Assembly (NCBI GenBank): GCA_902597195.1
Contig: CACJWV010000001.1
Location: forward strand, 120-64,119
Direction: 5' to 3'
Source of the DNA: an uncultured Bacteroidota bacterium
Lineage (GTDB): Bacteria; Bacteroidota; Bacteroidia; Flavobacteriales; BACL11
DNA length: 64,000 nucleotides
Below are positions 28,280 to 48,473 of the stretch, in pieces. A program made the position numbers and the translations under genes. Under the pieces are notes generated by a model, which worked only from the letters and a program-made list of their open reading frames with translations, had not been told where the DNA came from and ran no database searches. The number at the start of each line of letters is the position of its first letter. Positions within the stretch are counted from its first letter, which is position 1.

Positions 28280-31200
28280 ATGAAAAAGATAGTTGGACTA
28301 ATTCTTTTGGTTTTTCTATCATTTGGTGTTCATGCAAGTCACATCATGGGAGGAGAGATCACCTGGGAGTGTATCAAAGATCCTCTTGACCCTGATGTTG
28401 GTAAGTATATTTTCACAATGAAGTTATACAGAGATTGTGATGGTATTTCTTTACCCACAACTAATCAAACACTAAATGTTTGGAATCACCCTACAGTAAC
28501 TACAATCAGTTTACAATTTATTTCAAATACTGACATATCACCAGACTGTGATGTTACAAATAGTGGAAACCCTGCATTAGACTGTTTTACAAATCCAATC
28601 GGCGCTGTTGAAGAGTACATCTATCAATCTCTGCCAATAGCTTTAATTGGCGCACCTCCAATTTCCAATCCTCCAACACCCACTACGCATGGATGGCATT
28701 TTACATGGGACTCATGCTGTAGAAATGGAGCTATTGTAAATTTAACTACACCAAATTCTGACGGTTTTACCATGAGAGCTTCAATGTTCGCATATGTCGA
28801 TCCTCTAGGTAACTCCACGCCGACAGATCCATGCTTTGATTCCTCTCCAATTTTTAATGAAAGCCCTAAGACAATTATTTGTACTGGATATCCTTTTTCA
28901 TATACACATAATGCATCTGATCAAGAAATGGATAGTTTGGTTTACAGTTGGGACGAGCCATTAGATGACTTTTTTGGGGCTTACAATCCGCCTGTAACAC
29001 CCGGTCTGCTAACGTATACACCCCCTTACACTGCAAATAACCCGCTTCCTGGAAACCCAACACTTGATCCTCAAAACGGTCAGATATCTTACACATCAAA
29101 TTTATCTGGTAACTTTGTTACTGTAGTAAGAGTTGATGCATACAAATGTGATCAGCTGGTTGCTCAAATTTATAGAGAAATTCAAGCAGTTTTAATTGCT
29201 TGTCCTCCTCTTGCTGGTGGAAATGCAAACTTTCCTCCAAATATTCCAGCACCATTTCCAGCACCAACTCCCTATTATACCACTGTTGCAGCTGGAACTT
29301 TGGTATCTTTCAATATTAGTGCCTCTGATGCTGATTTATATGCAGCTGGTGTACCTCAAGATGTATCATTAGAAATCACTGGAGGTCAAATGGCAGGTGA
29401 TTTTATAACAACCACTGATTGTGTTAGCCCACCCTGCGCTACATTTACTGACAACTTAGGTAATCCACCACCTTTTTCATCTCCTTCTATCGTTAATGGA
29501 ATTTTTGAGTGGCAAACAGCATGTACCCATATTTCTTCGGATGCAGGATGTGGTAACGTATCAAATATTTACAATTTTGCAATAAAAGCATATGATGACT
29601 TTTGTCCTGCAAATGCTATTACTTTTGCAACAATAACAATCGAAGTTACTCAAGCAGCATCTCTGCCTGCACCCGATTTAAAATGTGTGTTTGTTAATGG
29701 TAATGGCGATGTAACTTTAGATTGGAACCACACCGTAGGGGCAAACAACTCTACGCTATATCATCTCTACGCCTCTGATAATATTGGGGGACCTTACGTA
29801 AATGTTGCAGATGTATCATATCCAACTGATAATTATACAATTGACTCTTCACTTGTGCCACCAGGAGCGCAATATTTTTTCATGACAAATGAGTCCACAT
29901 GTGCAAGTGAATCTCTACCATCAGACACCATTACACCAATAGCATTTGAAATTTCATCAAACAATGTATCTTGTTGGGATGATGCAGATGGGTCAATTTC
30001 CGTCGAAGTTTTAACTAACATGTTAAATCCATTTAGTTATTATATAAATGGTGTAATTAACCCTAATCCACCTCCTTATGATACTTTGTTTAGTGCATTA
30101 CAAGCCGGAACTTATAATATTACAGTAAGTGACAACGGATATTGCCAAATTACTCAGCCAATTCATATAACTGCCCCTGGTTTTCCATTACAATTAATTA
30201 TTAGTGATACTGTGAATACCTGCTTTGGCCAAGGAACCGCTAACGCTAGCGTAGATGGAGCAGGAGGAACCCCACCATACAGCTATGAATGGTTTAATTT
30301 TGGTGATACAATAGCATTTTCTACACAAAATACTGTAGATTCCTTATCCACTGGTAGTTATTTTGTAGAAATTATGGATGTAAATGGATGCGATACTTTC
30401 ACTACAGTACAAGTTATATCCTCACAGCTTCCATTGACAGCCTCACCACAGATTTATGGTGTTTCATGTCAAGGTGATAGTACTGGTATGATCATAGCAG
30501 ATGGAGGAGGTAGCTCTCCCCCTTATAAATACTACTGGAAGGATTCTAGCGGAGATACTATAAGATATACAGGATATATGATAGGAAGAGACACATTGAG
30601 AGATCTTCCTGCAGGAAGTTATAGGCTACATATTTATGATTCACAAGATTGTTTTGAAGATTATATATTAACAGTAGGAGAACCTGCAACGAGCCTAACA
30701 ATAGATAGTTTATTAACTGTTTCAGATATTGCTTGTCATGGAGATAGTGTAGGTAGCGCGAGAATGTTTGTAAGCGGAGGTATGCCTAACTACTCATATG
30801 TTTGGGAAAGCGGAGAGACTGGTTTAGTAGCTACATCTCTCAAGGCTGGCTATAACACTGTGTCTGTTACAGATGACTGGGGTTGTACAGTAGAGGATAG
30901 TATTCAAATTAATGAGAACCCTCTGATTGAGTCAACAGTTAGTGTTGTTCAGAATGTAAGTTGTTATGGTAATTCTGACGGTATTGCAAGTGTTACTTCA
31001 TCAGGAGGCATTCCATCATATATATATTTCTGGAGTAATGGCCATACAGGCTTTAGTATGCCAGATACAGCATATAATCTACTATTTGGAAGTTATTATG
31101 TTACTACCAGAGATGCTTTAGGTTGTGAAGTTATAGATAGTATAGATATAAGTCAACCAGAACCTTTATCAATGGAGGCTAGTGAGATAGAGTGGATTTC

Positions 31201-33178
31201 TTGCTATGGAGCAAATGATGGATTGGCAAATGCATATGCTTGGGGAGGTACAGCTCCTTATACCTTTACATGGCTGCCAAACGGGCAACAAGGAGATACT
31301 GTAAACACATTAACTCCAGGTATACACACAGTTACTGTTACTGATGCAAAAGGCTGTACAGCAAGTGATACAGTATTTATAAATGAGCCTTTTGAGCTAT
31401 TTGTAGACATAGATGATGCACAGACCGTTTTAGCTTATTGTGTAGGAGTTAATACTGCTTCACTCACAGCTATTGCATCTGGAGGAACACCTGGTTATTC
31501 TTATCAATGGGATGATAATAGTGTTGCTCCTCAAACAACATCAGTAGCAACAGATTTATTTGCAGGAGTTTATACAATTACAGTTACAGATTCTAGAGGT
31601 TGTACAGTTACAGATTCTAGAGATATAGATACAGTTACAAATACAATGAATGCACATATTACTGCATTAAATCAGTATAACGGAGGCCATCACGTAAGTT
31701 GTTATGGCGCAAATGATGGAAAAGTATATGTGTCGGCTTCAGGAGCACATGAACCTTATTCTTACCAATGGTTTGGTCCTTCAGGCTTTAGTGGTAGTAA
31801 CGACACTATTAATCAACTTGCTGCAGGTATATACTCTGTGAATGTTAGTGATACAAATAATTGTATGGTAAATACGAGTATACATGTTACTGAGCCATTA
31901 AATCTATTATATAGTGTTCATTCCTCCACTGCTGAGACATGTCTTGGTTCTTGTGATGGAACAGTTTCATTACAATTATCAGGTGGTACTGCTCCTTACG
32001 TAGGTATTTTTACTAATAATGTAACTGGACATATTGGATCAAGCTCTATGCCTAATGATAGCTTGATTACTAATGTTTGTTCTGGTAGTCATAGTATTAC
32101 ACTAACTGATGCTAATGGTTGCTCTAGTGCTATAATCAACGGAGGTAACAATCAGGTCGTTGTTCCATTTGCATTGTCAACAACAGCGTCTATTGATTTT
32201 TCTTCTGTGGTAAATGTATTGTGTAACTCATCTGCTACTGGCTCTGTAAGTGCTTTAAACCCAATTACAAATAATACAAACTACTCTTACTCTTGGGAAA
32301 ATGTAAATAACCCTGGAGTTACAGTTTCAAGTACTACTGCAGCATCAAACTTAATTGCTGGCACTTATGTTTTATTAGCACATTATTCTGATTCAAATAA
32401 TTTAAATCTAATATACCCAGGATGTACATCATCAGATACTGTTACTATTTCGGAGCTACCAGCTGTTGAAATTTCAAGTAATGGAATAGTTGCAGCGGAT
32501 TGCTTTGGAGCAAGTACTGGTAGTATTAACGCAGCAGTCTCTGGTGGAACACCGCCTTATACTTTTAGTTGGCTGCCTAGCGGTGGAAGTTCGAACTTAG
32601 CTAGCAATTTAAGTGCAGGTACGTATACGCTGAATGTATTAGACGCTAATCAGTGTTCTGATGTAGATACTTTTATGGTATCACAGCCAGATGTTCTAAA
32701 TGTTAGTATCACTGAGAATAATTATTTGTTGAGCGTATCTTCCTTAACAGGAGGAGTACCTCCTTACTCATATTCTTGGAGAGAATCTTCAACACCAAAT
32801 GTTTCAATACAAGGAGGGACTTCATTTTTAGTAACAGAAGGAGGAAATTATTATGTAATAATAACGGATGCCAATGGATGTACACAGACATCTAATTCTG
32901 TGTTGTTTAATGAGACAAGCATTGGAGAAGCTGCAATAAGTGAGATAAAAATATATCCGAACCCATTTAGAGATGAAGCTACGATTGATTTAGGAACATC
33001 AGTATCGGACGTAGTCGTAAGGGTAATGGATATATATGGAAAAGTTATAGAAATAATAGAAACAAAGAATAGAGATAAGGTTTTAATAAAGTCTAGAAAC
33101 AAGGCTAAAGGAACCTATTTTGTGGAGATAGAAATAGATGAAGATCAAATATTCTACAAGAAATTAATAATGGATTAA
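28280..33178 (+). CDS. Giant cell-surface protein: unique ~555-aa head, SprB-repeat stalk and T9SS type-A C-terminal domain (island gene 2)
   Basis: Signal peptide MKKIVGLILLVFLSFGVHA. Head starts SHIMGGEITWEC...LYRDCDG. About a dozen SprB-type repeats (GGTPPYSYEW, GGMPNYSYVW, GGTAPYTFTW, GGTPGYSYQW and others). Tail IKIYPNPFRDEATIDLG...GTYFVEIEID is a Por secretion tail (TIGR04183 type). Confidence 0.9.
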   Translation: MKKIVGLILLVFLSFGVHASHIMGGEITWECIKDPLDPDVGKYIFTMKLYRDCDGISLPTTNQTLNVWNHPTVTTISLQFISNTDISPDCDVTNSGNPALDCFTNPIGAVEEYIYQSLPIALIGAPPISNPPTPTTHGWHFTWDSCCRNGAIVNLTTPNSDGFTMRASMFAYVDPLGNSTPTDPCFDSSPIFNESPKTIICTGYPFSYTHNASDQEMDSLVYSWDEPLDDFFGAYNPPVTPGLLTYTPPYTANNPLPGNPTLDPQNGQISYTSNLSGNFVTVVRVDAYKCDQLVAQIYREIQAVLIACPPLAGGNANFPPNIPAPFPAPTPYYTTVAAGTLVSFNISASDADLYAAGVPQDVSLEITGGQMAGDFITTTDCVSPPCATFTDNLGNPPPFSSPSIVNGIFEWQTACTHISSDAGCGNVSNIYNFAIKAYDDFCPANAITFATITIEVTQAASLPAPDLKCVFVNGNGDVTLDWNHTVGANNSTLYHLYASDNIGGPYVNVADVSYPTDNYTIDSSLVPPGAQYFFMTNESTCASESLPSDTITPIAFEISSNNVSCWDDADGSISVEVLTNMLNPFSYYINGVINPNPPPYDTLFSALQAGTYNITVSDNGYCQITQPIHITAPGFPLQLIISDTVNTCFGQGTANASVDGAGGTPPYSYEWFNFGDTIAFSTQNTVDSLSTGSYFVEIMDVNGCDTFTTVQVISSQLPLTASPQIYGVSCQGDSTGMIIADGGGSSPPYKYYWKDSSGDTIRYTGYMIGRDTLRDLPAGSYRLHIYDSQDCFEDYILTVGEPATSLTIDSLLTVSDIACHGDSVGSARMFVSGGMPNYSYVWESGETGLVATSLKAGYNTVSVTDDWGCTVEDSIQINENPLIESTVSVVQNVSCYGNSDGIASVTSSGGIPSYIYFWSNGHTGFSMPDTAYNLLFGSYYVTTRDALGCEVIDSIDISQPEPLSMEASEIEWISCYGANDGLANAYAWGGTAPYTFTWLPNGQQGDTVNTLTPGIHTVTVTDAKGCTASDTVFINEPFELFVDIDDAQTVLAYCVGVNTASLTAIASGGTPGYSYQWDDNSVAPQTTSVATDLFAGVYTITVTDSRGCTVTDSRDIDTVTNTMNAHITALNQYNGGHHVSCYGANDGKVYVSASGAHEPYSYQWFGPSGFSGSNDTINQLAAGIYSVNVSDTNNCMVNTSIHVTEPLNLLYSVHSSTAETCLGSCDGTVSLQLSGGTAPYVGIFTNNVTGHIGSSSMPNDSLITNVCSGSHSITLTDANGCSSAIINGGNNQVVVPFALSTTASIDFSSVVNVLCNSSATGSVSALNPITNNTNYSYSWENVNNPGVTVSSTTAASNLIAGTYVLLAHYSDSNNLNLIYPGCTSSDTVTISELPAVEISSNGIVAADCFGASTGSINAAVSGGTPPYTFSWLPSGGSSNLASNLSAGTYTLNVLDANQCSDVDTFMVSQPDVLNVSITENNYLLSVSSLTGGVPPYSYSWRESSTPNVSIQGGTSFLVTEGGNYYVIITDANGCTQTSNSVLFNETSIGEAAISEIKIYPNPFRDEATIDLGTSVSDVVVRVMDIYGKVIEIIETKNRDKVLIKSRNKAKGTYFVEIEIDEDQIFYKKLIMD
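30349..33163 (+). repeat. Copy 1 of a 2,815-bp near-identical direct repeat (3' part of gene 2)
   Basis: Block-by-block comparison with 42,239-45,053 at a constant offset of 11,890. Mismatches occur only at 30385, 30514, 30516 and 30517. Positions 30518-33163 are identical. Confidence 0.95.
32945..33175 (+). other. T9SS type-A C-terminal sorting domain of island gene 2
   Basis: IKIYPNPFRDEATIDLGTSVSDVVVRVMDIYGKVIEIIE...KGTYFVEIEIDEDQIFYKK. Confidence 0.8.
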
Positions 33179-33262
33179 CCCTGTGGTTTATCCAAATGAA
33201 AAATTTATAATATGATTAATAGTTTATATAATAGTTCAAAATTAAGAAATGGTTTTTTAAAT

Positions 33263-36200
33263 ATGAAGTTGTTTTTTATTGCATTTAGTATGCTAGTTTT
33301 TGTTGGTGTTAATGCACAGGTAACTGTTAATGTTACTAATGCTACTTCTGTAAACGCAAATGATGGATTAGCTATAGCTAATGTTGCTACAGGTTCTGGA
33401 AATTACACGTACTATTGGGAAGATTTAAGTACAAATCTACCTGCTAATGGACCTACAACTACCACAGCTTCAACAGACACATTTTTTAATGCACCCTCTG
33501 GTACATACTTATTATCAGTAATTGACAACGGTTTGAGTACATTTTCAAGTGATACGGTTTTCATTTCTGCTCCTGGTGGTTCTTTTTCTTATAATGGTGC
33601 ACTCGGATTATGCGTAAACACGACGACACAATTAACTGCAATTTTAAGTGGATGTAGTTATATTAATCCAACTCTTGGAATAGATTACACACTGCTGAGC
33701 TCAGTAGGAGGTGTGCTATTGTCTACTAATTCAACTCTTGATTCTGTTTCATTACCTGTTTTAGGTGCAGGAACTTATTATATGTCTTCTGCTAATCTTG
33801 ATAATGGATGTATTACTGTAGATACATTCACTATTTCTACAGGTGTTTTATCTGCAAATGTTGTATCATCAAATGTGTTGGGTCCTAACAACCTAGGTTC
33901 TGCAACTATTACTGCATTTGGAGGAACACCACCATATAGCATATATTGGAGTATTGGTGGAGTTGGTTCAGTTATTACTTCATGGACAAACGGAGATTCT
34001 ATACAAAACCTAACTCCAGGTACATATACATATACAGTTAGTAGCTCTGGTTGTTTCACATCAGGAAGCGTGACAATAACTAATGCATGTAATGCAAATT
34101 TTATTTCAAATTATAATGTATGCGATGAGAGTATAAATCTAAGCGCAACAATGAATATGACTAACCCAGGTAGTTCTTACAATTACAATTATGAGTTATC
34201 AAATAGTTCTGGGGTTATTGAAAATTTATTATCTAGTAATGATTCAATAGCATTCACTAGCTCAATTAGTAATAATGGTTTATACTTTTTAAATGTTACT
34301 GAAACCACAACCGGCTGTATATCACAAGATACAATTGACATTAATTTAACACCGCTGTTAGTAAATACAACTGTAAATAATGTAACAGATCCTTTGTTAT
34401 GTAATGGTTCTATATTTGCAACCCCAACAACAGGTTCCTTTCCTTACACATTTCAATGGGATACCAATGGAACTGTTTTTTCCTCTAATTCCGGTTTTAA
34501 CTCTAGCATAATAAATCTTTGCTCTGATACTTTCTGTCTAACAGTCACTGATGCGAGTTCATGCTCATACAATGAATGTATTGCTGTTCAGTTTAATCCT
34601 TGCATTGCTACCACAACGGTTTTTGATAGTATCAATTGTTACAATGGTGTTGGAGTGATTCAAGTAGATGTTGATACACTAGGTTTAGGAGCTGGACCGC
34701 TAGCCTACACTGGTTCTAGGTTCATATATACTGTCACAGACATATCAACAAGTGCTACAACTACACAACAATCCAACAATACTACTTTTATCTTCCCCAA
34801 CTTGTCTGCAGGTTCTTACATTATAAATGTAGAAGATCAGTCATGGGGGTCTTTCTGTGTTGGTGATACAATTGAATTAACTCAGCCGGACCCTTTACAA
34901 ATCTTCACTTCAACATACAATCCGAGTTTTCCGTGGATACAAGATGGATACATAGTAATTGATTCAATTATTGGAGGTACTGCTCCATTTAATGTTGTTT
35001 GGCTAGATTCAGTTGGTATTCCCTTACCAACCTCTGGATTTCTAGTTCAAGATTCTTTAGGTTATTCAAACCAATATAATGGAGGGTATACAATTCAAGT
35101 GACTGATACAAACGGTTGTTTCCAATCAGTTACTTTATACCTTGACCCTGATAATTCGGCATCTCAACTTTCAATTGATTCAACTTCAGTAACTAATCCA
35201 AGATGTTTTGATGATTGTGATGGAAAATTATTTGCCAAAATGTATGGTGTTGGTACTTATTCGGTACCCCCGTTTACATTTTACTGGCTAAATGCAACAA
35301 CAGGTGATACTTTAAAAGTAGATTCATTAGGTTCAGCATGGTATAATCCTGCTCATGTAGCAACTTATACAAATAGATGTGCAGGAGATTATGAACTGCA
35401 TGCTTATGATTATTATGATAGAGGTCCTGCTACGGCTCAATTTACTTTAACTAATCCGGATCAGATTTCTGTTTACACTTACGGAGGAGAGCCACTTGAA
35501 ATTGAGTGTGGAGAAGATACTGTTTTAGTTTCTCAAGTCTTTGGCGGAAATAGAACTAATGATACTATCTTTCATAGCTCCAACACCATACAAATAGCCG
35601 GTGGTTTTCCTGCACTAACAGCATATGGTTTTTCTGACACCTTAGATGTGGGTGGAGATTATCTTTTACAAGTTACTGGAACATATGTCGACACTGGTGG
35701 TGTGTTCCATGATGCAGCTTACAGAGACTTCATCTCTCCCTCACCTGAAATGAATTGGTCATTTGATGGTAACTTTACTCACAGACCAACACCAAATCAA
35801 TATGACTTAACACATTCTTACTATTTTCCATTTACGGGAACGGGTGTTCATGAGTTTATTTTCTTTGATCCTGGTTTAATCTACACTGGAGCTTTAACAT
35901 TTACAATTTTTGAACTTGAGCTTGATACACCTCAGTATACATATATATGGTATGAGTCAACTCCTGCTGGTAATATTGTAATTAGCGATTCATCAACGGC
36001 ATACTCATATCCTGGTGTAAATGGAACAGATTATATATTATCGGTTGAAGATCACAAAGGATGTGAAGCAATTGATTCTCTAAGAGTTGAGTGGAATTTA
36101 AATATATTAAACTTTAATAATGTTAGTGTAGTAAGTGCTTCTTGCTATGGTGATTCATCAGGTTCAGTTGTAATGTCTGTCGATACAACCACTGGTTTTC

Positions 36201-39200
36201 CACCTTATTCATATTTGATTGATGGAGTAGTAACAACAGACACAGTATTCAATCTTCCACAAGGAAATTATACTTTAACACTAGCTGACAGCATAGGTTG
36301 TATATCAGATGATTATAATGTGAGTATTTTACAACCTGATTCCCTTTATGCGTGCGGTATGGATACCAACAAAGTAGCAGTTTTATTGGATTCGTTTACG
36401 ATGTCTTTTGATAGTAGTTACAGCCACACAACACAAGTTAGTACAATGCCTGGTCTTGAGTATATGTTTAGGGTAAGTGGAGTTTTTGGAGACACATTAT
36501 TTGTAAATTATATGGACGCTGCATATACATATAACGTCGCTCCACCAATAGCTCATAGCTATAACCCGTGGCAATTTAACGGTGATTCTACAATTAGACC
36601 AATTCCTGACATTTTTAATCCTAACCACGTTTATGAATATTATTTTATTGGAGATGGTAACTCGCAAACGTTTACTTACGAAGATTTAGCTGGAGATTAT
36701 CTTGGATCTGGTGGACAATTAAACTTTGAATTTTATAAGTTAGTTTGTCCAGTCAAAGATACGTCTTACTCTTGCTTTGGTGATAGTACAGCAACAGCAT
36801 CAGTTTACCCAAATGGAGGAATTCCTTTTGATCCAGATGGACTATCTAATTCAGGAGATGAATATTATAAATATGAGTGGACTGGGGCAGGTGGAACGAT
36901 ATGGTCAACTAGTCAAACTGCAAATAATTTGCCAGCTGGAAATTATACAGTAACAATTACTGACAGCCTTGGATGTACCTATGAAAGAGAATTACTAGTT
37001 CTTCAATCAGCTACTCCATTAAATATTGATACAATCAGCCAAATAAATGTTGCATGTAAAAGTGATTCAACAGGTGAAATTTTAGCTGTTGTTTCTGGAG
37101 GATTCGGTTCCAATGTTGCAGTTCTAGTTTCAGGTAATGACACAATTTATTTACAAACAGATATAGCTGACACAATTCTAATTACAAATTTAAAGTCAGG
37201 CTTATACGACCTTTACGTTTTTGATACGATTCCAAACAGTATATATGGATTGTATGGTTGTCCACAGCAAGCTCAAATTTTTATTGATGAGCCACAGAAT
37301 GAACTAACTTCAACAGTAAACTTGTTGGAGAATGTCATATGTTTTGGAGATTCAACAGGTAAGGCTATTTCAAATGTCCAAGGTGGGCAGTTCCCATATA
37401 TCTATGCATGGGATAATGGAGATTCAACACAAATTAATAGCAATCTTTGGGCAGGATGGCAAGGTGTGACCTTTACTGACGCCAACAATTGTACGTTAAG
37501 AGATAGTATAGAAATTATTAATGTTAATCCTGAAATACAAGGGTTTGTTTCAATTCTACAGAATGTATCATGCTTTAATGGATGTGATGGTATTGCACAA
37601 CTTTCTTCAACTGGAGGAGTGCTACAACACAATTATTTCTGGGATAATGGTCAAACATACTTTGGAAGTGGTCCTGATACTGCTTATAGCCTTTGCTATG
37701 GAGGACATGACATAATAATTGAAGATATGGAGGGTTGTAGAAAAATTGTAGAATTTACAATTAATCAGCCTACTGAAATTTTTGCTCAAGCGACAATGGT
37801 TCAGCCAGTACAATGTTTCGGATTTGATGATGGCATGGCATATGGAACAGCTACTGGTGGTACGCCTCCCTACACTTATGTTTGGGATAGTATAAATGGT
37901 CAAAGTGGGCAAAATGCTATCAACTTAACACCGGGAGTTCATGTTTTATATGTTACAGATAGCAAAGGATGTACTGCTCAAGATACTGTAGTTATTACAG
38001 AACCTGCAGAGCTTATAGTTTCAATTGATGATACCATGACGGTATATTCATACTGTTCAGGAACTAATTCTGGACAACTGTGTGCAGTTGCCTCTGGCGG
38101 TACAACTCCTTATAATTATGTTTGGAACGATCCACTTGGTCAACAAGGCTCTTGTGCGTTTAATTTACAAGCTGATTTCTATACAGTAATAGTAATGGAC
38201 GATAGAAATTGTATTGCAACAACTTCTTTTGATTTAGATTCAATAACTAATTCAATGACTTCAGCAGGAGTATCAACATCACAAAATGACGTAACATGCT
38301 TTGGATTATACGACGGATCAATTACTATTAATTTAGTTACTGGTGGGGTACCTGGATATTCTTACCAGTGGACTGGTCCTTCGGGATACACTTCAACAGA
38401 TTCATCTATATCTTCTCTTTATTCAGGAAGCTATGCTTGTGTAATAACTGATACAAATGGATGCGCAGTAACTATTAATACTGAACTCAATCAGCCGGAT
38501 CAGTTAGAATACAACACCTACAACGTTGCTGATGTTTCTTGTTTTGGAGCATGTAATGGTCAAATTTGGGTTGATGTCGAGGGCGGAACGTGGCCATACT
38601 ATTATGATTTTTCAGAAACTGGAACTTTCCCAATCGCAGCAGCTAATAAAGTTCAATTGATTTCAGATACTTTAATTAAAGATTTATGTACAGGACAGCA
38701 TAGTATTTATATTACTGATGCTAACAACTGTGTTGGAACTGTACAGTGGGGTGGGACATGGCAAGAGTTTGTTGACTCTGGAGTTGTTGTTGTTAACGAC
38801 AACATAAATACTGTTGATGCTACTTGCTTCAATTCAAATGATGGATATGCTTGGATTCCTTGGCCAGGGCCTAATCCTTTATTTACATATACGTGGGAAA
38901 CAGATCCAATAACATCAACTATTGATACAGGCTCGTCTACAAACTTACTATTCCCTGGAAATTATAATTTAGTTGCTCATTATTCTGACAGTGCGAATTT
39001 TGGTCAAGTATACAGTGGATGTGATGTAGCTCTTCCTTTTACAATTTCTGGTCCTCCAGCAATTGTTTCAGGTGGAATAGTAACTGATGTAACTTGCTAT
39101 ACTGATACTGATGGTCAAATTACATTAAACCCTAGTGGGGGTACAGGAAATTTTTCATTCCTATGGGACACAACAACATCTGTTCCAATAGGTTCAAATC

Positions 39201-40657
39201 AGATTAATAGTCAAAATTTAAATAATCTACAACCAGGAACTTACACAGTGACAATAACTGATGCCAATGGTTGCGATATAACACAAAATTTTGATGTTCT
39301 TGAACCAGATGCTCTAACAAATGATTTTATAAATGTTTCTGATGTTACTTGCTTTAATCTTCAAGATGGTTCTGTTACATCACAGCCTGATGGAGGTACT
39401 CCAGGATATTCATTTAGCTGGTCACCGAGTGGAGGTAATGCTGCTATTGCAAATAATTTAACTGCTGGAACTTACACTTTAACGGTTACTGATGCTAATG
39501 GTTGTCAAGGACAATTTAGTGTTGATGTAAATCAACCTGACCAAATTATTGCATCAACTGATGCCAACGCGTTTTATGGTGAGGACCAAAATGGAAATCC
39601 ATACAACATCTCTTGCATTGGCTTGAGTGATGGTTCTGCAATCGTAACAAATGGAGGTGGACTTAGTCCTATTACTTACAGTTGGGTTGATGCAACTGGA
39701 AATGTTGTTTCAACAAATGCAAATACTGGAAATATTTTAAGTGCTGGTAATTATACTATAACGGTAACTGACGCCAACGGTTGTTCTGAGATTGACAATA
39801 TAACTTTGATTGAACCAACTCAATTATTAGCTAATCCAACAGAAAGTGGCGACATTAGCAATTTTCCTGGAGCATTTGATATTTCATGTAAAGGAGAATC
39901 GGATGGATGGATTGAGTTAGATCCCTCAGGAGGTGTTGCTAATTCAGGAGGTATTTATCAATACAGTTGGAATGGAAGTATTAATGGTCCAATGAACATG
40001 AGCTCAATATATAATGTGACTGCAGGTAATTATTCAGTAACTGTAACTGATGCTAATGGTTGTTCAATAACAGAAACATTTAACCTGGATGAACCAGCTG
40101 ACGATTTTGTTGCAACTGTTGATTTTGTAAATTACACTGGACCTCAAAAAGCACCTTATCAAGTTGATTTTATAGACAATACATCCACTTTGAACAACGA
40201 TCTAATCAATCATTACTGGTATTGGTCAGTAAATGAATCAGTTGATAGTTACTTAAACTCCAATCAACAGACATTTACCAACACTTTTAATACAGTTGGT
40301 GACAACTTTGTTTACGTAATAGTTGAAAATACAATTTCAGGCTGCACAGATTCATTAACATTTAATGTAGAGGTACAAGGTATTGATGACCCAATTAATA
40401 ATGTTTTCACACCAAACGGGGATGGAATTAACGACACTTATGACTTTGGTGAGCATGCAATGAGTGTGTTTAATGTCGAAATTTACAATAGATGGGGTGA
40501 GACAGTATTTTCTTGGGAAGGAGAGAAAAAAGCATGGGATGGTAAAGGTTACGATGGACAAATGCTTCCTGAAGGAGTTTATTTCTATGTAATGGAAGCT
40601 GAAGGAATAGACGGAGAATTTTACAGCGAGAAAGGTACTGTTACTTTAATTAGATAA
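33263..40657 (+). CDS. Giant cell-surface SprB-repeat protein (~2464 aa) with two copies of an unassigned domain, a PKD-like domain and a T9SS type-B C-terminal domain (island gene 3)
   Basis: The track ORF starts at 33212. I prefer ATG 33263 because MKLFFIAFSMLVFVGVNAQ is a canonical signal peptide. There are dozens of SprB-type repeats. C-terminal FTPNGDGINDTYDF...EIYNRWGETVFSW...WDGKGYDGQMLPEGVYFYVM. Confidence 0.9.
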   Translation: MKLFFIAFSMLVFVGVNAQVTVNVTNATSVNANDGLAIANVATGSGNYTYYWEDLSTNLPANGPTTTTASTDTFFNAPSGTYLLSVIDNGLSTFSSDTVFISAPGGSFSYNGALGLCVNTTTQLTAILSGCSYINPTLGIDYTLLSSVGGVLLSTNSTLDSVSLPVLGAGTYYMSSANLDNGCITVDTFTISTGVLSANVVSSNVLGPNNLGSATITAFGGTPPYSIYWSIGGVGSVITSWTNGDSIQNLTPGTYTYTVSSSGCFTSGSVTITNACNANFISNYNVCDESINLSATMNMTNPGSSYNYNYELSNSSGVIENLLSSNDSIAFTSSISNNGLYFLNVTETTTGCISQDTIDINLTPLLVNTTVNNVTDPLLCNGSIFATPTTGSFPYTFQWDTNGTVFSSNSGFNSSIINLCSDTFCLTVTDASSCSYNECIAVQFNPCIATTTVFDSINCYNGVGVIQVDVDTLGLGAGPLAYTGSRFIYTVTDISTSATTTQQSNNTTFIFPNLSAGSYIINVEDQSWGSFCVGDTIELTQPDPLQIFTSTYNPSFPWIQDGYIVIDSIIGGTAPFNVVWLDSVGIPLPTSGFLVQDSLGYSNQYNGGYTIQVTDTNGCFQSVTLYLDPDNSASQLSIDSTSVTNPRCFDDCDGKLFAKMYGVGTYSVPPFTFYWLNATTGDTLKVDSLGSAWYNPAHVATYTNRCAGDYELHAYDYYDRGPATAQFTLTNPDQISVYTYGGEPLEIECGEDTVLVSQVFGGNRTNDTIFHSSNTIQIAGGFPALTAYGFSDTLDVGGDYLLQVTGTYVDTGGVFHDAAYRDFISPSPEMNWSFDGNFTHRPTPNQYDLTHSYYFPFTGTGVHEFIFFDPGLIYTGALTFTIFELELDTPQYTYIWYESTPAGNIVISDSSTAYSYPGVNGTDYILSVEDHKGCEAIDSLRVEWNLNILNFNNVSVVSASCYGDSSGSVVMSVDTTTGFPPYSYLIDGVVTTDTVFNLPQGNYTLTLADSIGCISDDYNVSILQPDSLYACGMDTNKVAVLLDSFTMSFDSSYSHTTQVSTMPGLEYMFRVSGVFGDTLFVNYMDAAYTYNVAPPIAHSYNPWQFNGDSTIRPIPDIFNPNHVYEYYFIGDGNSQTFTYEDLAGDYLGSGGQLNFEFYKLVCPVKDTSYSCFGDSTATASVYPNGGIPFDPDGLSNSGDEYYKYEWTGAGGTIWSTSQTANNLPAGNYTVTITDSLGCTYERELLVLQSATPLNIDTISQINVACKSDSTGEILAVVSGGFGSNVAVLVSGNDTIYLQTDIADTILITNLKSGLYDLYVFDTIPNSIYGLYGCPQQAQIFIDEPQNELTSTVNLLENVICFGDSTGKAISNVQGGQFPYIYAWDNGDSTQINSNLWAGWQGVTFTDANNCTLRDSIEIINVNPEIQGFVSILQNVSCFNGCDGIAQLSSTGGVLQHNYFWDNGQTYFGSGPDTAYSLCYGGHDIIIEDMEGCRKIVEFTINQPTEIFAQATMVQPVQCFGFDDGMAYGTATGGTPPYTYVWDSINGQSGQNAINLTPGVHVLYVTDSKGCTAQDTVVITEPAELIVSIDDTMTVYSYCSGTNSGQLCAVASGGTTPYNYVWNDPLGQQGSCAFNLQADFYTVIVMDDRNCIATTSFDLDSITNSMTSAGVSTSQNDVTCFGLYDGSITINLVTGGVPGYSYQWTGPSGYTSTDSSISSLYSGSYACVITDTNGCAVTINTELNQPDQLEYNTYNVADVSCFGACNGQIWVDVEGGTWPYYYDFSETGTFPIAAANKVQLISDTLIKDLCTGQHSIYITDANNCVGTVQWGGTWQEFVDSGVVVVNDNINTVDATCFNSNDGYAWIPWPGPNPLFTYTWETDPITSTIDTGSSTNLLFPGNYNLVAHYSDSANFGQVYSGCDVALPFTISGPPAIVSGGIVTDVTCYTDTDGQITLNPSGGTGNFSFLWDTTTSVPIGSNQINSQNLNNLQPGTYTVTITDANGCDITQNFDVLEPDALTNDFINVSDVTCFNLQDGSVTSQPDGGTPGYSFSWSPSGGNAAIANNLTAGTYTLTVTDANGCQGQFSVDVNQPDQIIASTDANAFYGEDQNGNPYNISCIGLSDGSAIVTNGGGLSPITYSWVDATGNVVSTNANTGNILSAGNYTITVTDANGCSEIDNITLIEPTQLLANPTESGDISNFPGAFDISCKGESDGWIELDPSGGVANSGGIYQYSWNGSINGPMNMSSIYNVTAGNYSVTVTDANGCSITETFNLDEPADDFVATVDFVNYTGPQKAPYQVDFIDNTSTLNNDLINHYWYWSVNESVDSYLNSNQQTFTNTFNTVGDNFVYVIVENTISGCTDSLTFNVEVQGIDDPINNVFTPNGDGINDTYDFGEHAMSVFNVEIYNRWGETVFSWEGEKKAWDGKGYDGQMLPEGVYFYVMEAEGIDGEFYSEKGTVTLIR
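40397..40654 (+). other. T9SS type-B C-terminal sorting domain of island gene 3
   Basis: Same signature as gene 1: FTPNGDxIND, YNRWG, WDGKG, PEGVYFY. Confidence 0.8.
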
Positions 40658-40673
40658 TTCTATTTTTAATCTA

Positions 40674-43600
40674 ATGAAAAGAATTCTATTATACTTTTTT
40701 CTGCTTTTTGTATTAAAAAATTCATATAGTCAGATAATTCTCACAAATGATACCACAGTTTGTGGTATGCAGAATTTGGATTTGTATGCGATTAGTGCGT
40801 CAGTAGATTCATTAGTTACAGATGATACCTATACTCAAACTATAAACTTAGGCTTTGATTTTGATTTCTATGGTGTCACATATAATAAAATGCTTATTTC
40901 ATCAAATGGATATGTAACATTTGATACAACAAGCGCAGGTGGTTATTCACCATGGGCGATAAACGCGGCTATCCCAAATCCAGGAACACCACCAGAGAAT
41001 TCAATTATGGTTACTTGGCAAGATACAGATCCTGGAGTTGCTGGTGCAATTTATTTTGGCTCTTATGGTGCTGCACCAAATAGAGTTTATGTAGTTACTT
41101 GGTGTGGTTTGGCAATGTTTTCATGCAATAGTTTGATATACACCTCGCAACTTAGAATGTATGAGGGCTCAAACAAAATTGAAATGTATCTGCAAGATAA
41201 ACCTCTCTGTGCAACCTGGAATGCAGGAGCAGCAGTGCAGGGCTTAGTAGATGCAACTAGTACTAATTTTGATATAGTTAATGACCCTGTTCAATTTTTA
41301 GATAGAAATTTTCCACTAAACTGGACAGCGACGAATGAAGGATGGGAATTTGTTCCTAATGGTGTAAATTCCTACAACATAAGTCCAATACCTTTTGTAT
41401 CTGTTGCTGCAGGTTCAACCACTTGGACTGATGGCTTTGGAAACATAGTTGGATATGGAGATTCAATAACTGTTATGCCACTTTCTACAACCACATACTA
41501 TGCAACAATGACAAGTCAGTGCTCTGGTACAATAGTTGACTCAATAACAATCACAGTTGGTTCTGGAATACAATCAAATTTAATTACTGAAAATACTAGC
41601 TGTTCTGGAGATGATGGTAAAGTTACTGTTACTCCTGATTTAGTAACTTCTCAGCCACCTTGGAATATAAATCTATTAGACCTTAATGGAAACATCATAC
41701 AAAGTCAGCAAAATGTTTTTACCTCTTACATTTTTTCAGGTTTATATCCAGGTACATACATCGCACAAATTATAGAGCCAGTATCAGGATGCTCTGGCAC
41801 AAAGAGCTTCATTATTAATCAAGATTCTATAGCTTTACAAATTGCTAGCGTTCCAACAAATGTAAGTTGTTACAATGGAAATGACGGAGAAATAGCTGTT
41901 CAAGTTATTAATGGTGCGCCACCATTTACATTCTATCTTAATAACCAAATCAATACGAATCCATACCCTTATGATAGTGTTTTTTCTAATCTTTCATCAG
42001 GAAGTTATTTCATAACTGTCACTGATGATAATAATTGCTCCATAAGAGATACTATTTCAATTGATTCTCCCACCTATCCTTTAAGAGCAATAGCCCAATC
42101 TAAAGTACCTGTTTGTAGCGGATCAACAACTGGACCAATTATTGCATTGGGAGCAGGAGGAACCCCACCATACAGCTATGAATGGTTTGACTACAATTTT
42201 AATAGTTTGTCTAATGACGATAGTTTATTTAATGTTTCTACTGGTAGTTATTTTGTAGAAATTATGGATGTAAACGGATGCGATACTTTCACTACAGTAC
42301 AAGTTATATCCTCACAGCTTCCATTGACAGCCTCACCACAGATTTATGGTGTTTCATGTCAAGGTGATAGTACTGGTATGATCATAGCAGATGGAGGAGG
42401 TAGTTTCCCCCCTTATAAATACTACTGGAAGGATTCTAGCGGAGATACTATAAGATATACAGGATATATGATAGGAAGAGACACATTGAGAGATCTTCCT
42501 GCAGGAAGTTATAGGCTACATATTTATGATTCACAAGATTGTTTTGAAGATTATATATTAACAGTAGGAGAACCTGCAACGAGCCTAACAATAGATAGTT
42601 TATTAACTGTTTCAGATATTGCTTGTCATGGAGATAGTGTAGGTAGCGCGAGAATGTTTGTAAGCGGAGGTATGCCTAACTACTCATATGTTTGGGAAAG
42701 CGGAGAGACTGGTTTAGTAGCTACATCTCTCAAGGCTGGCTATAACACTGTGTCTGTTACAGATGACTGGGGTTGTACAGTAGAGGATAGTATTCAAATT
42801 AATGAGAACCCTCTGATTGAGTCAACAGTTAGTGTTGTTCAGAATGTAAGTTGTTATGGTAATTCTGACGGTATTGCAAGTGTTACTTCATCAGGAGGCA
42901 TTCCATCATATATATATTTCTGGAGTAATGGCCATACAGGCTTTAGTATGCCAGATACAGCATATAATCTACTATTTGGAAGTTATTATGTTACTACCAG
43001 AGATGCTTTAGGTTGTGAAGTTATAGATAGTATAGATATAAGTCAACCAGAACCTTTATCAATGGAGGCTAGTGAGATAGAGTGGATTTCTTGCTATGGA
43101 GCAAATGATGGATTGGCAAATGCATATGCTTGGGGAGGTACAGCTCCTTATACCTTTACATGGCTGCCAAACGGGCAACAAGGAGATACTGTAAACACAT
43201 TAACTCCAGGTATACACACAGTTACTGTTACTGATGCAAAAGGCTGTACAGCAAGTGATACAGTATTTATAAATGAGCCTTTTGAGCTATTTGTAGACAT
43301 AGATGATGCACAGACCGTTTTAGCTTATTGTGTAGGAGTTAATACTGCTTCACTCACAGCTATTGCATCTGGAGGAACACCTGGTTATTCTTATCAATGG
43401 GATGATAATAGTGTTGCTCCTCAAACAACATCAGTAGCAACAGATTTATTTGCAGGAGTTTATACAATTACAGTTACAGATTCTAGAGGTTGTACAGTTA
43501 CAGATTCTAGAGATATAGATACAGTTACAAATACAATGAATGCACATATTACTGCATTAAATCAGTATAACGGAGGCCATCACGTAAGTTGTTATGGCGC

Positions 43601-45068
43601 AAATGATGGAAAAGTATATGTGTCGGCTTCAGGAGCACATGAACCTTATTCTTACCAATGGTTTGGTCCTTCAGGCTTTAGTGGTAGTAACGACACTATT
43701 AATCAACTTGCTGCAGGTATATACTCTGTGAATGTTAGTGATACAAATAATTGTATGGTAAATACGAGTATACATGTTACTGAGCCATTAAATCTATTAT
43801 ATAGTGTTCATTCCTCCACTGCTGAGACATGTCTTGGTTCTTGTGATGGAACAGTTTCATTACAATTATCAGGTGGTACTGCTCCTTACGTAGGTATTTT
43901 TACTAATAATGTAACTGGACATATTGGATCAAGCTCTATGCCTAATGATAGCTTGATTACTAATGTTTGTTCTGGTAGTCATAGTATTACACTAACTGAT
44001 GCTAATGGTTGCTCTAGTGCTATAATCAACGGAGGTAACAATCAGGTCGTTGTTCCATTTGCATTGTCAACAACAGCGTCTATTGATTTTTCTTCTGTGG
44101 TAAATGTATTGTGTAACTCATCTGCTACTGGCTCTGTAAGTGCTTTAAACCCAATTACAAATAATACAAACTACTCTTACTCTTGGGAAAATGTAAATAA
44201 CCCTGGAGTTACAGTTTCAAGTACTACTGCAGCATCAAACTTAATTGCTGGCACTTATGTTTTATTAGCACATTATTCTGATTCAAATAATTTAAATCTA
44301 ATATACCCAGGATGTACATCATCAGATACTGTTACTATTTCGGAGCTACCAGCTGTTGAAATTTCAAGTAATGGAATAGTTGCAGCGGATTGCTTTGGAG
44401 CAAGTACTGGTAGTATTAACGCAGCAGTCTCTGGTGGAACACCGCCTTATACTTTTAGTTGGCTGCCTAGCGGTGGAAGTTCGAACTTAGCTAGCAATTT
44501 AAGTGCAGGTACGTATACGCTGAATGTATTAGACGCTAATCAGTGTTCTGATGTAGATACTTTTATGGTATCACAGCCAGATGTTCTAAATGTTAGTATC
44601 ACTGAGAATAATTATTTGTTGAGCGTATCTTCCTTAACAGGAGGAGTACCTCCTTACTCATATTCTTGGAGAGAATCTTCAACACCAAATGTTTCAATAC
44701 AAGGAGGGACTTCATTTTTAGTAACAGAAGGAGGAAATTATTATGTAATAATAACGGATGCCAATGGATGTACACAGACATCTAATTCTGTGTTGTTTAA
44801 TGAGACAAGCATTGGAGAAGCTGCAATAAGTGAGATAAAAATATATCCGAACCCATTTAGAGATGAAGCTACGATTGATTTAGGAACATCAGTATCGGAC
44901 GTAGTCGTAAGGGTAATGGATATATATGGAAAAGTTATAGAAATAATAGAAACAAAGAATAGAGATAAGGTTTTAATAAAGTCTAGAAACAAGGCTAAAG
45001 GAACCTATTTTGTGGAGATAGAAATAGATGAAGATCAAATATTCTACAAGAAAATTTCAATTAAGTAA
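40674..45068 (+). CDS. Giant cell-surface protein: unique ~300-aa head, SprB-repeat stalk nearly identical to gene 2, and T9SS type-A C-terminal domain (island gene 4)
   Basis: Signal peptide MKRILLYFFLLFVLKNSYSQ. Head contains INLGFDFDFYGVTYNKMLISSNGYVTFD. From residue ~522 onward the protein matches gene 2 except for one S/F substitution and the last 4-5 residues. It lies only 16 nt downstream of gene 3. Confidence 0.9.
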   Translation: MKRILLYFFLLFVLKNSYSQIILTNDTTVCGMQNLDLYAISASVDSLVTDDTYTQTINLGFDFDFYGVTYNKMLISSNGYVTFDTTSAGGYSPWAINAAIPNPGTPPENSIMVTWQDTDPGVAGAIYFGSYGAAPNRVYVVTWCGLAMFSCNSLIYTSQLRMYEGSNKIEMYLQDKPLCATWNAGAAVQGLVDATSTNFDIVNDPVQFLDRNFPLNWTATNEGWEFVPNGVNSYNISPIPFVSVAAGSTTWTDGFGNIVGYGDSITVMPLSTTTYYATMTSQCSGTIVDSITITVGSGIQSNLITENTSCSGDDGKVTVTPDLVTSQPPWNINLLDLNGNIIQSQQNVFTSYIFSGLYPGTYIAQIIEPVSGCSGTKSFIINQDSIALQIASVPTNVSCYNGNDGEIAVQVINGAPPFTFYLNNQINTNPYPYDSVFSNLSSGSYFITVTDDNNCSIRDTISIDSPTYPLRAIAQSKVPVCSGSTTGPIIALGAGGTPPYSYEWFDYNFNSLSNDDSLFNVSTGSYFVEIMDVNGCDTFTTVQVISSQLPLTASPQIYGVSCQGDSTGMIIADGGGSFPPYKYYWKDSSGDTIRYTGYMIGRDTLRDLPAGSYRLHIYDSQDCFEDYILTVGEPATSLTIDSLLTVSDIACHGDSVGSARMFVSGGMPNYSYVWESGETGLVATSLKAGYNTVSVTDDWGCTVEDSIQINENPLIESTVSVVQNVSCYGNSDGIASVTSSGGIPSYIYFWSNGHTGFSMPDTAYNLLFGSYYVTTRDALGCEVIDSIDISQPEPLSMEASEIEWISCYGANDGLANAYAWGGTAPYTFTWLPNGQQGDTVNTLTPGIHTVTVTDAKGCTASDTVFINEPFELFVDIDDAQTVLAYCVGVNTASLTAIASGGTPGYSYQWDDNSVAPQTTSVATDLFAGVYTITVTDSRGCTVTDSRDIDTVTNTMNAHITALNQYNGGHHVSCYGANDGKVYVSASGAHEPYSYQWFGPSGFSGSNDTINQLAAGIYSVNVSDTNNCMVNTSIHVTEPLNLLYSVHSSTAETCLGSCDGTVSLQLSGGTAPYVGIFTNNVTGHIGSSSMPNDSLITNVCSGSHSITLTDANGCSSAIINGGNNQVVVPFALSTTASIDFSSVVNVLCNSSATGSVSALNPITNNTNYSYSWENVNNPGVTVSSTTAASNLIAGTYVLLAHYSDSNNLNLIYPGCTSSDTVTISELPAVEISSNGIVAADCFGASTGSINAAVSGGTPPYTFSWLPSGGSSNLASNLSAGTYTLNVLDANQCSDVDTFMVSQPDVLNVSITENNYLLSVSSLTGGVPPYSYSWRESSTPNVSIQGGTSFLVTEGGNYYVIITDANGCTQTSNSVLFNETSIGEAAISEIKIYPNPFRDEATIDLGTSVSDVVVRVMDIYGKVIEIIETKNRDKVLIKSRNKAKGTYFVEIEIDEDQIFYKKISIK
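42239..45053 (+). repeat. Copy 2 of the 2,815-bp near-identical direct repeat (3' part of gene 4)
   Basis: See copy 1. The offset of 11,890 bp is constant along the whole length, so there are no indels. Confidence 0.95.
44835..45065 (+). other. T9SS type-A C-terminal sorting domain of island gene 4
   Basis: Nucleotide-identical to 32945-33163 of gene 2. Only the last codons differ (KKISIK versus KKLIMD). Confidence 0.8.
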
Positions 45069-45573: not shown

Positions 45574-45577
45574 TTAA

Positions 45578-46048: not shown

Positions 46049-46053
46049 TTGAT

Positions 46054-48162: not shown

Positions 48163-48163
48163 T

Positions 48164-48472: not shown

Positions 48473-48473
48473 G

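What the first reader, a model, noticed from the sequence alone, without database searches (positions are those of the whole stretch)
35560..36755. Two copies of an unassigned ~110-120-aa domain interrupt the SprB-repeat array of gene 3
Two segments of gene 3, at ~35,627-35,926 and ~36,422-36,752, lack the Cys-repeat pattern but resemble each other. The first reads GGDYLLQVTGTYVDTGGVFHDAAYRDFISPSPEMNWSFDGNFTHRPTPNQYDLTHSYYFPFTGTGVHEFIFFDPGLIYTGALTFTIFEL. The second reads GLEYMFRVSGVFGDTLFVNYMDAAYTYNVAPPIAHSYNPWQFNGDSTIRPIPDIFNPNHVYEYYFIGDGNSQTFTYEDLAGDYLGSGGQLNFEFYKL.

The shared skeleton is Y..[QR]V[ST]G...(n)DAAY...P...W.F[DN]G....RP.P......H.Y...F.G.G....F...D.....G.L.F..[FY].L. It is aromatic-rich and cysteine-free, and looks like a beta-sandwich. 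I cannot match it to a named family from memory.

The two copies sit mid-fibre, about 270 aa apart. They are candidates for a ligand-binding or lectin-like module carried only by the longest, type-B protein.
Basis: seen in the sequence. Interest (0 to 1): 0.55.

Follow-up and report, generated by a model that had tools for sequence, protein, structure and literature searches.

The report
LecA-like lectin-fold modules in SprB adhesin
Two cysteine-free inserts in a giant secreted surface protein of a marine Flavobacteriales bacterium are real copies of an uncatalogued beta-sandwich domain that is distantly related to the LecA/PA-IL sugar-binding lectins, but both copies have lost two of the three residues that hold the lectin's calcium ion.

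Summary
Gene 3 (33212-40657, 2481 aa) is tiled by 24 SprB-like repeats. The only two long (>100 aa) gaps in the tiling hold the two segments, at aa 783-902 and 1052-1178. The segments are cysteine-free and related to each other (29% identity, E 9e-9). Pfam and NCBIfam have no model for them.

An exhaustive profile search found a family of at least 175 clusters. Most members are T9SS cargo, often alongside Laminin_G_3, Ig_7, PKD or SprB domains.

With a 47-sequence alignment, AlphaFold2 gives a confident beta-sandwich (pLDDT 92). Its best PDB matches are the PA-IL lectins EclA-N, PllA and LecA (Foldseek probability 0.97-1.0, TM 0.43-0.59). Profile-profile comparison with PA-IL gives 89.9% probability, against at most 0.9% for shuffled controls.

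The family's conserved D...DN motif aligns with the calcium ligands of EclA-N. It is present in 92 of 106 domains, but the DN pair is missing in both window copies and their orthologues.

Verdict: an uncurated, remote branch of the LecA/PA-IL lectin fold. Copy 1 is nested inside a SprB repeat. The copies are probably binding modules that no longer use the canonical calcium-sugar mechanism. Interest is moderate.

The parts
33212..40657 (+). Gene 3: a 2481-aa SprB-repeat surface protein and T9SS cargo, host of both domains
   Evidence: ORF. Pfam SprB E 5e-71 in 15 stretches, plus CHU_C. 24 self-derived repeats tile aa 40-2398.
35558..35917 (+). Copy 1 of the PA-IL-like beta-sandwich domain (aa 783-902)
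   Evidence: Matches the family profile. 29% identical to copy 2, E 9e-9. Cys-free. Lies in a gap of the SprB repeat tiling.
36365..36745 (+). Copy 2 of the PA-IL-like beta-sandwich domain (aa 1052-1178)
   Evidence: AF2 model of aa 1042-1183: pLDDT 92.3, pTM 0.85, strands from residue 14 to 137. Foldseek top hits are EclA-N, PllA and LecA.
35498..35557 (+). N-terminal piece of the SprB repeat that is split by copy 1 (..EIECGEDTVLVSQVFGG..)
   Evidence: Read directly from the sequence. The repeat after the insert starts only at model position 12. Inference: this piece supplies the missing first strand.
35918..36136 (+). C-terminal piece of the split SprB repeat (..YTYIWYES...GCEAIDSLRVEW..)
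   Evidence: Repeat-HMM hit at aa 889-975 covers model positions 12-83 only.
35867..35896 (+). Copy 1 loop DPGLIYTGAL, equivalent to the calcium-binding loop of PA-IL lectins. The first Asp is kept and the Asp-Asn pair is deleted.
   Evidence: hmmalign to the family profile.
36680..36721 (+). Copy 2 loop EDLAGDYLGSGGQL, equivalent to the calcium-binding loop. The first Asp is kept and Asp-Asn is replaced by Gly-Ser.
   Evidence: hmmalign. hhalign pairs it with LecA NDVPGTYGNNSGSF.
40394..40654 (+). T9SS type B C-terminal sorting domain of gene 3 (aa 2395-2481)
   Evidence: PF13585 CHU_C E 2.9e-19. TIGR04131 E 3.1e-13.

Best explanation
Each segment is a ~120-127-residue jelly-roll beta-sandwich from an uncurated domain family. 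The family occurs mainly in T9SS-secreted surface proteins of Bacteroidota and is a remote relative of the calcium-dependent LecA/PA-IL lectins.

Shown:
- The two copies are homologous to each other and to the family.
- The fold is predicted with high confidence.
- PA-IL lectins are the best structural and profile match.
- Most family members keep a D...DN triad that aligns with the three side-chain calcium ligands of EclA-N (Asp114, Asp121, Asn122; LecA D100, N107, N108).
- The window copies and their orthologues keep only the first Asp.
- Copy 1 sits between the 'C-G...GG' strand and the 'Y-x-Y-x-W' strand of a SprB repeat. Copy 2 sits between two complete repeats.

Inferred: the modules project sideways from the rod-like SprB-type filament and act as adhesin binding modules. 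By analogy with the lectin-bearing gliding adhesin RemA, they would contact a surface or polysaccharide ligand. Because the calcium site is gone, binding would have to use the other family-conserved residues, which both copies retain: DAAY, W-x-[WF]-[ND]-G, R-P-x-P-[DN] and N-H-x-Y. It would not use the canonical calcium-bridged sugar contact.
For: - Copy-to-copy similarity: E 9e-9.
- Exhaustive profile search: 175 clusters with E<=1e-3 and 51 with E<=1e-10. The orthologues P0007 and P0008 carry two copies at the same positions.
- AF2 with the 47-sequence alignment: pLDDT 92.3, pTM 0.85.
- Foldseek against PDB: ranks 1, 2 and 4 are EclA-N (6ygq; probability 1.00, TM 0.48-0.59). PllA 5ofz has probability 1.00 and TM 0.49/0.56. 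LecA 1l7l has probability 0.97.
- Family profile against PDB sequences: the best hit is 6ygq, E 0.0035, aligning NH.Y...F.D..Y.DN.G.
- hhalign of the family against a PA-IL profile: probability 89.9%, E 1.7e-6, score 40.6. Controls: reversed profile 0.5%; 30 column shuffles reach at most 0.9% and score 16; SprB repeats 0.6%.
- With relaxed settings the alignment is colinear over 112 columns.
- EclA-N calcium ligands are taken from PMC11875179.
- Triad census: 92 of 106 domains have [DE]..DN. Both window copies and P0001/7/8/9/12/13/45 lack DN. All other positions conserved at 70% or more are kept in both copies, either identically or with a conservative swap (N/D, D/N, Y/F, F/Y).
- Co-occurring domains in 93 members: Laminin_G_3 in 14, T9SS CTDs in 24, Ig_7 in 8, PKD in 7, Fib_succ_major in 5, SprB in 5.
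- 22 of 64 evaluable family domains are flanked by 'C.G' upstream and '.W[ST]' downstream, that is, nested in an Ig-like repeat.
- RemA is a precedent for a lectin module on a mobile gliding adhesin (PMC8481357, citing PMC3393505).
Against: - The PA-IL link is remote. No member reaches the PF07828 gathering score (best E 0.083 in 1 of 47).
- TM-scores are borderline (0.43-0.59) with rmsd of 6-7.6 A.
- Confident profile alignment covers only the C-terminal 37 columns.
- The LecA loop carrying the galactose contacts H50 and Q53 has no confident counterpart.
- Loss of the DN pair argues against lectin activity in these two copies.
- No binding data exist for any family member.
- Only copy 2 was modelled.
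Confidence: 0.62

Rival explanations
1. The two copies are decayed lectin modules that now serve only a structural role in the SprB-like filament, as spacers, kinks or stiffeners, with no ligand of their own.
For: The Asp-Asn pair of the putative calcium site is lost in both copies. The loop is not conserved among orthologues: GDYLGSGGQL, GDYFGSTGQL and ANYAANSGVL for copy 2, with a shortened loop in copy 1.
Against: Both modules are kept at the same two positions in orthologues in different 50%-identity clusters (P0007, P0008). All non-calcium conserved positions of the family are retained. This indicates continued selection on more than bulk.
Confidence: 0.22
2. They are functional calcium-dependent, galactoside-type lectins working as LecA and PllA do.
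For: PA-IL lectins are the best fold and profile match. Copy 2's loop has the same length as the LecA/PllA loop and keeps the first Asp plus extra acidic residues (E1157, D1162).
Against: N107/N108-equivalent positions are Gly-Ser in copy 2 and deleted in copy 1. LecA's H50/Q53 loop is not alignable. Even EclA-N, which keeps the calcium site, does not bind galactose (PMC11875179).
Confidence: 0.07
3. The resemblance to PA-IL is convergent or reflects only a shared calcium-loop motif. On this reading the family is an independent jelly-roll (CBM-like) domain.
For: TM is only about 0.5 and rmsd 6-7.6 A. The confident hhalign stretch is only 37 columns. Other jelly rolls also appear in the hit lists, including GOLD, CBM36, CBM4 and phage tail proteins.
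Against: Sequence-profile and structure searches independently pick the same small PDB family as the top hit. Shuffled and reversed controls score far lower. The alignment is colinear over the whole LecA chain.
Confidence: 0.15
4. The segments are just degenerate SprB/Ig-like repeats that lost their cysteines.
For: They lie within a SprB array. The last strand of copy 1 is partly absorbed into the next repeat's HMM hit.
Against: The self-derived SprB repeat HMM does not cover aa 763-888 or 1057-1182. hhalign of the family against the SprB repeats gives probability 0.6%. The domain is about 125 aa against about 85 aa for a repeat. It also occurs in proteins without SprB repeats, for example with Laminin_G_3.
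Confidence: 0.02

Closest known systems
LecA / PA-IL lectin family (Pfam PF07828): LecA of Pseudomonas aeruginosa, PllA of Photorhabdus, N-terminal domain of EclA of Enterobacter cloacae
   Same: - Jelly-roll beta-sandwich of similar size.
- Best Foldseek and profile match.
- The family consensus F.F.D..Y.DN.G.L.F.IY aligns with LecA YNDVPGTYGNNSGSFSVNI and EclA-N FFADGKDQYKDNAGEFSVEVY, including the three side-chain calcium ligands.
   Different: - No member passes the PF07828 threshold.
- The calcium loop is 2 residues shorter in the family consensus.
- The LecA H50/Q53 sugar loop has no confident counterpart.
- The family has its own motifs: DAAY, W.WNG and RP.PD.YN..H.Y.
- It occurs as a module inside huge T9SS cargo proteins of Bacteroidota, whereas the PA-IL lectins are small soluble proteins of Proteobacteria. 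The EclA paper calls EclA the first LecA domain fused to another domain.
- The window copies lack the Asp-Asn pair.
RemA of Flavobacterium johnsoniae, a mobile gliding adhesin with an embedded lectin domain
   Same: A T9SS-secreted, repeat-rich cell-surface adhesin that carries a lectin-type module and binds galactose-containing polysaccharide (PMC8481357, citing PMC3393505). It is the functional analogy for a binding module on a SprB-like filament.
   Different: From my own knowledge, RemA's lectin domain belongs to a different fold family (SUEL/rhamnose-binding type). No sequence relationship was tested here.
SprB repeat proteins (Pfam PF13573) with a T9SS type B CTD
   Same: The host protein is one of these: 15 Pfam SprB stretches, 24 self-derived repeats and a CHU_C/TIGR04131 CTD.
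   Different: The two segments themselves are not SprB repeats. At 2481 aa the host is much shorter than F. johnsoniae SprB, which is about 6500 aa (own knowledge).
Calcium-dependent carbohydrate-binding modules of the galactose-binding-domain-like fold (for example CBM36, CBM4)
   Same: Jelly-roll beta-sandwiches. They appear as weak Foldseek hits (7ay3 CBM36: E 0.076, TM 0.32-0.35).
   Different: They score much worse than the PA-IL lectins, and no sequence-profile signal was found.

Membership tests
LecA/PA-IL lectin family (PF07828) | Match to the PF07828 HMM at or above the gathering score | tested here: not met
   No hit for either window copy. Among 47 family members, only one weak hit at E 0.083.
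LecA/PA-IL lectin family (PF07828) | PA-IL-type jelly-roll beta-sandwich fold | tested here: met
   The AF2 model (pLDDT 92.3) has EclA-N, PllA and LecA as its best PDB matches, with probability 0.97-1.00 and TM 0.43-0.59. TM is borderline, so this shows fold-level similarity and does not prove membership.
LecA/PA-IL lectin family (PF07828) | Calcium-binding side chains (LecA D100, N107, N108; EclA-N D114, D121, N122) | tested here: not met
   Window copy 1 has D and a deletion. Copy 2 has D, G, S. The wider family does meet this feature in 92 of 106 domains. Ligand identities are from PMC11875179.
LecA/PA-IL lectin family (PF07828) | Galactose-contacting residues (LecA H50, Q53 loop) | tested here: inconclusive
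   This region aligns only at near-zero confidence in the relaxed hhalign run.
LecA/PA-IL lectin family (PF07828) | Calcium-dependent galactoside binding; dimer or tetramer assembly | not testable with these tools
   Needs recombinant protein.
Uncurated 'DAAY / YGDNSGSL' beta-sandwich family (defined here) | Significant match to the family profile and retention of the conserved core positions (Y, G, DAA, W, RP.P, H.Y, F.G, D, Y, G.L) | tested here: met
   Both copies align over the full profile. All positions conserved at 70% or more, other than the DN pair, are kept identically or with a conservative swap.
SprB repeat (PF13573) | The segment matches the repeat model and carries the repeat's Cys pattern | tested here: not met
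   The repeat tiling leaves gaps at aa 763-888 and 1057-1182. No Cys is present. hhalign probability is 0.6%.
T9SS type B cargo (host protein) | C-terminal type B sorting domain (TIGR04131 / PF13585) | tested here: met
T9SS type B cargo (host protein) | Cognate PorP/SprF-like outer-membrane partner encoded nearby | tested here: inconclusive
   None of the 17 flanking ORFs scanned with Pfam is PorP/SprF-like. Small ORFs and the genome outside the window were not examined.

The most novel reading that the evidence does not exclude
The LecA/PA-IL lectin fold has so far been known only from small soluble lectins of a few Proteobacteria. On this reading it has a large, uncatalogued sister family that serves as a common ligand-binding module of T9SS surface proteins in marine and environmental Bacteroidota. 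A sub-branch became nested inside SprB repeats, lost the calcium site and evolved a new, calcium-independent binding mode that helps these bacteria attach to or glide on particles or algal surfaces.
Probability: 0.25. Interest if true: 0.55.

Novelty: new variant of a known kind. Interest (0 to 1): 0.4.

Why it matters
PA-IL/LecA lectins are studied as virulence factors and drug targets and are regarded as a narrow family. The 2024 EclA paper called EclA the first LecA domain fused to another domain. Here a remote, much more widespread modular branch appears in T9SS cargo of Bacteroidota, with at least 175 clusters at 50% identity, most of them keeping the calcium triad. If the link holds, it gives a testable handle on what giant SprB-like adhesins of uncultured marine Flavobacteriales bind. 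It would also justify a new Pfam/InterPro entry.

For this window specifically the gain is smaller. The two copies are a divergent sub-branch without the Asp-Asn pair of the canonical calcium ligands, so their ligand, if there is one, remains open.

Tried and rejected
- AF2 with only the two window copies as alignment gave pLDDT 55.6 and was not used.
- A profile built from the two copies hit RagC GTPases in the PDB at E 0.002. I rejected this as spurious: the target has an alpha/beta fold, the aligned stretch is short, and the hit vanished with the 47-sequence profile.
- The word-indexed homologue search found only frameshifted fragments of close orthologues, plus one RicinB-containing protein. 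The exhaustive search was needed.
- hhalign against the single LecA sequence gave only 8.7% probability. It became informative only with an 8-sequence PA-IL profile.
- A scan of GTDB representative genomes with aa 760-1185 found no relative.
- An exact look-up of the gene 3 product found nothing.
- No family domain was found in 80 fusA loci covering 1.4 Mb.
- NCBIfam gave only chance-level hits, such as PEP-CTERM FxDxF at E 0.03, probably caused by a PEP-CTERM tail in one member.
- The BFVD fold search returned only generic phage tail jelly rolls.
- A literature search for PA-IL together with type IX secretion found no paper.
Full report
**1. The observation**

Gene 3 is the 33212-40657 (+) ORF of 2481 aa. 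Pfam finds 15 SprB-repeat stretches (E 5e-71) and a CHU_C type B T9SS sorting domain. NCBIfam confirms TIGR04131.

The protein has no cysteine between C766 and C951, or between C1048 and C1179.

BLASTP of the two regions gives 29% identity over 114 residues, E 9e-9. A profile built from the two copies finds nothing else in any six-frame ORF of the window.

I built a repeat HMM iteratively from the protein's own repeats. It tiles aa 40-2398 with 24 units of about 85 aa. The only two long (>100 aa) gaps are at aa 763-888 and 1057-1182; there are also short ones at aa 476-482, 1848-1865, 2122-2128 and 2308-2319.

**2. Boundaries and placement**

The family alignment and the structure model show that each domain begins about 30 residues upstream of the quoted peptides, with a strand of the type 'NDTI(L/F)..(F)T(M/I).F'. 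Copy 1 is roughly aa 783-902 and copy 2 roughly aa 1052-1178.

Copy 1 is preceded by 'EIECGEDTVLVSQVFGG' and followed by 'YTYIWYES...GCEAIDSLRVEW'. The SprB-repeat hit after it starts only at model position 12. Copy 1 is therefore best read as nested inside a split SprB repeat. Copy 2 lies between two complete repeats.

Nesting is common in the family. In 22 of 64 evaluable domains, a 'C.G' strand lies upstream and a '.W[ST]' strand downstream, as expected for an insertion into an Ig_7/PKD/SprB-type repeat.

**3. No curated family covers the domain, but it is not an orphan**

Pfam-A and NCBIfam give no hit for either copy or for 47 family members scanned one by one. The best Pfam result is PF07828 PA-IL at E 0.083 in a single member.

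The word-indexed search found only frameshifted fragments of close orthologues. The exhaustive profile search of 1.84 billion cluster representatives found 175 proteins at E<=1e-3 and 51 at E<=1e-10. Two of these are full-length orthologues, P0007 (2471 aa) and P0008 (2627 aa), which carry two copies at the same positions.

The family consensus is Y.L.VSGTY...DAAY...P...W.WNG....RP.PD.YN..H.Y.Y.F.G.G....F.F.D..Y.DN.G.L.F.IY.

Among 93 further members, the co-occurring Pfam domains are Laminin_G_3 (14), Por_Secre_tail (13), CHU_C (11), Ig_7 (8), PKD (7), Fib_succ_major (5) and SprB (5) (examples). Cluster members with source names come from Tara Oceans samples, a marine MAG project and a Chitinophagales MAG. 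The family is thus a module of T9SS-secreted surface proteins.

**4. Fold and closest known relatives**

With only the two copies as alignment, AF2 was unreliable (pLDDT 55.6). With the 47-sequence alignment, the model of copy 2 has pLDDT 92.3 and pTM 0.85 and is all-beta.

Foldseek against the PDB puts the PllA-like N-terminal lectin domain of EclA (6ygq) at ranks 1, 2 and 4, with probability 1.00 and TM 0.48-0.59. PllA (5ofz, 5odu) has probability 0.99-1.00 and TM 0.49-0.56. LecA (1l7l, 2vxj, 4cp9) has probability 0.90-0.99 and TM 0.43-0.52. GOLD domains, CBMs and viral jelly rolls score lower.

Independently, the family profile searched against PDB sequences has 6ygq as its best hit, E 0.0035.

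I verified the LecA sequence against 1l7l. I then assembled an 8-sequence PA-IL profile from LecA relatives, PllA, a second PllA-like lectin and EclA-N. hhalign of the family against this profile gives probability 89.9%, E 1.7e-6 and score 40.6 over the last 37 columns. Relaxed settings extend this to a colinear 112-column alignment.

The controls score far lower. The reversed PA-IL profile gives 0.5%. Thirty column shuffles reach at most 0.9% and score 16. The SprB repeats of the same protein give 0.6%.

I conclude that the domain is a remote relative of the PA-IL lectin fold and not a degenerate SprB repeat. The TM-scores are borderline and the confident sequence signal is confined to the C-terminal third. 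I therefore keep a 15% rival that the resemblance is convergent.

**5. The calcium site**

In EclA-N, calcium is held by the side chains of Asp114, Asp121 and Asn122 and by two main-chain oxygens (PMC11875179). These three residues are the ones aligned with the family's D...DN.

Of 106 domain sequences, 85 have D..DN and 7 have E..DN. The 14 exceptions include both window copies (copy 1: D, then a deletion; copy 2: D, G, S) and their orthologous clade P0001/P0007/P0008/P0009/P0012/P0013/P0045.

Every other position conserved at 70% or more is kept in both copies, identically or with a conservative swap. These are Y, G, D-A-A, W, N/D, R-P-x-P, D/N, Y/F, H-x-Y, F, G, F, F/Y, D, Y and G-x-L.

By inference, canonical family members are probably calcium-dependent carbohydrate binders. 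The SprB-embedded sub-branch in this window has given up the canonical calcium-bridged contact while remaining under selection.

**6. Most likely mechanism**

The steps below are inferred unless marked otherwise. The host protein is a T9SS type B cargo made of SprB-type repeats (shown). This is the architecture of the filamentous adhesins that Bacteroidota move over the cell surface. RemA shows that such adhesins can carry a lectin module that binds galactose-containing polysaccharide.

The two PA-IL-like modules are most likely side-projecting binding modules of such a filament. One of them is looped out of a repeat.

Given the lost Asp-Asn pair, I rate a non-canonical binding role as most likely. 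A purely structural role comes next (0.22). A LecA-like calcium/galactoside lectin is unlikely (0.07).

**7. Context**

The four SprB-repeat genes at 24808-45068 sit between uvrD and the rpsL-rpsG-fusA ribosomal operon, among housekeeping genes. EF-G is most similar to Crocinitomicaceae and uncultured Flavobacteriales MAGs, at 79-81%.

Gene 3 has no relative in the GTDB representative genomes by pattern scan and is not in the protein collection as an exact sequence.

**8. Novelty and score**

The domain is real and uncatalogued. By fold and remote homology it belongs to a known kind, the PA-IL/LecA lectin-type beta-sandwich. It differs in taxon and context: it is modular and often nested in Ig-like repeats of T9SS cargo. 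In this window it also lacks the calcium site. I file it as a new variant of a known kind, with interest 0.4.

Noticed in passing
window 30257-33163 and 42150-45053: A 2.9-kb direct repeat at 98.9% DNA identity. The C-terminal ~950 aa of gene 2 (28280-33178) and gene 4 (40674-45068) are nearly identical, and the two repeats flank gene 3. This could be a recent duplication, gene conversion, a substrate for recombination that would excise gene 3, or an assembly artefact.
   Followed up: partly
window 24808-45068: Four tandem SprB-repeat genes whose T9SS sorting domains alternate: gene 1 CHU_C (type B), gene 2 Por_Secre_tail (type A), gene 3 CHU_C (type B), gene 4 Por_Secre_tail (type A).
   Followed up: partly
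window 1-24747 and 45199-49714: No PorP/SprF-like partner gene for the two type B cargo proteins among the 17 flanking ORFs scanned. The neighbours are housekeeping genes: obg, M61 peptidase, metH, metF, metK, rsgA, ribF, atpD, uvrD and fusA.
   Followed up: partly
window 33212-33262: The gene 3 ORF begins 17 codons before a typical signal peptide (MKLFFIAFSMLVFVGVNAQ). The true start may be the ATG at 33263 (read).
   Followed up: no
window 46054-48162: EF-G is 79-81% identical to Crocinitomicaceae and uncultured Flavobacteriales MAGs and about 72% or less to other Bacteroidota. The window therefore comes from a marine Flavobacteriales lineage with no close GTDB species representative.
   Followed up: yes
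P0001-P0006 (ENA contigs of 28-697 kb): The close orthologues of gene 3 in the word-indexed database are all short, frameshifted fragments on long contigs. This suggests error-prone long-read assemblies of related genomes.
   Followed up: no
P0011 (1131 aa, JGI): A T9SS type A cargo that consists of four to five tandem units. In each unit the PA-IL-like domain is nested in an Ig-like repeat (iC.G...L / ILWSTGDTT). This member keeps the DN motif and would be a good subject for experiments.
   Followed up: partly
P0047 (995 aa, JGI): A family member named 'roadblock/LC7 domain-containing protein' by its source, although Pfam finds only PKD, SprB, Ig_7 and CHU_C domains. The name is probably a mis-annotation.
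   Followed up: no
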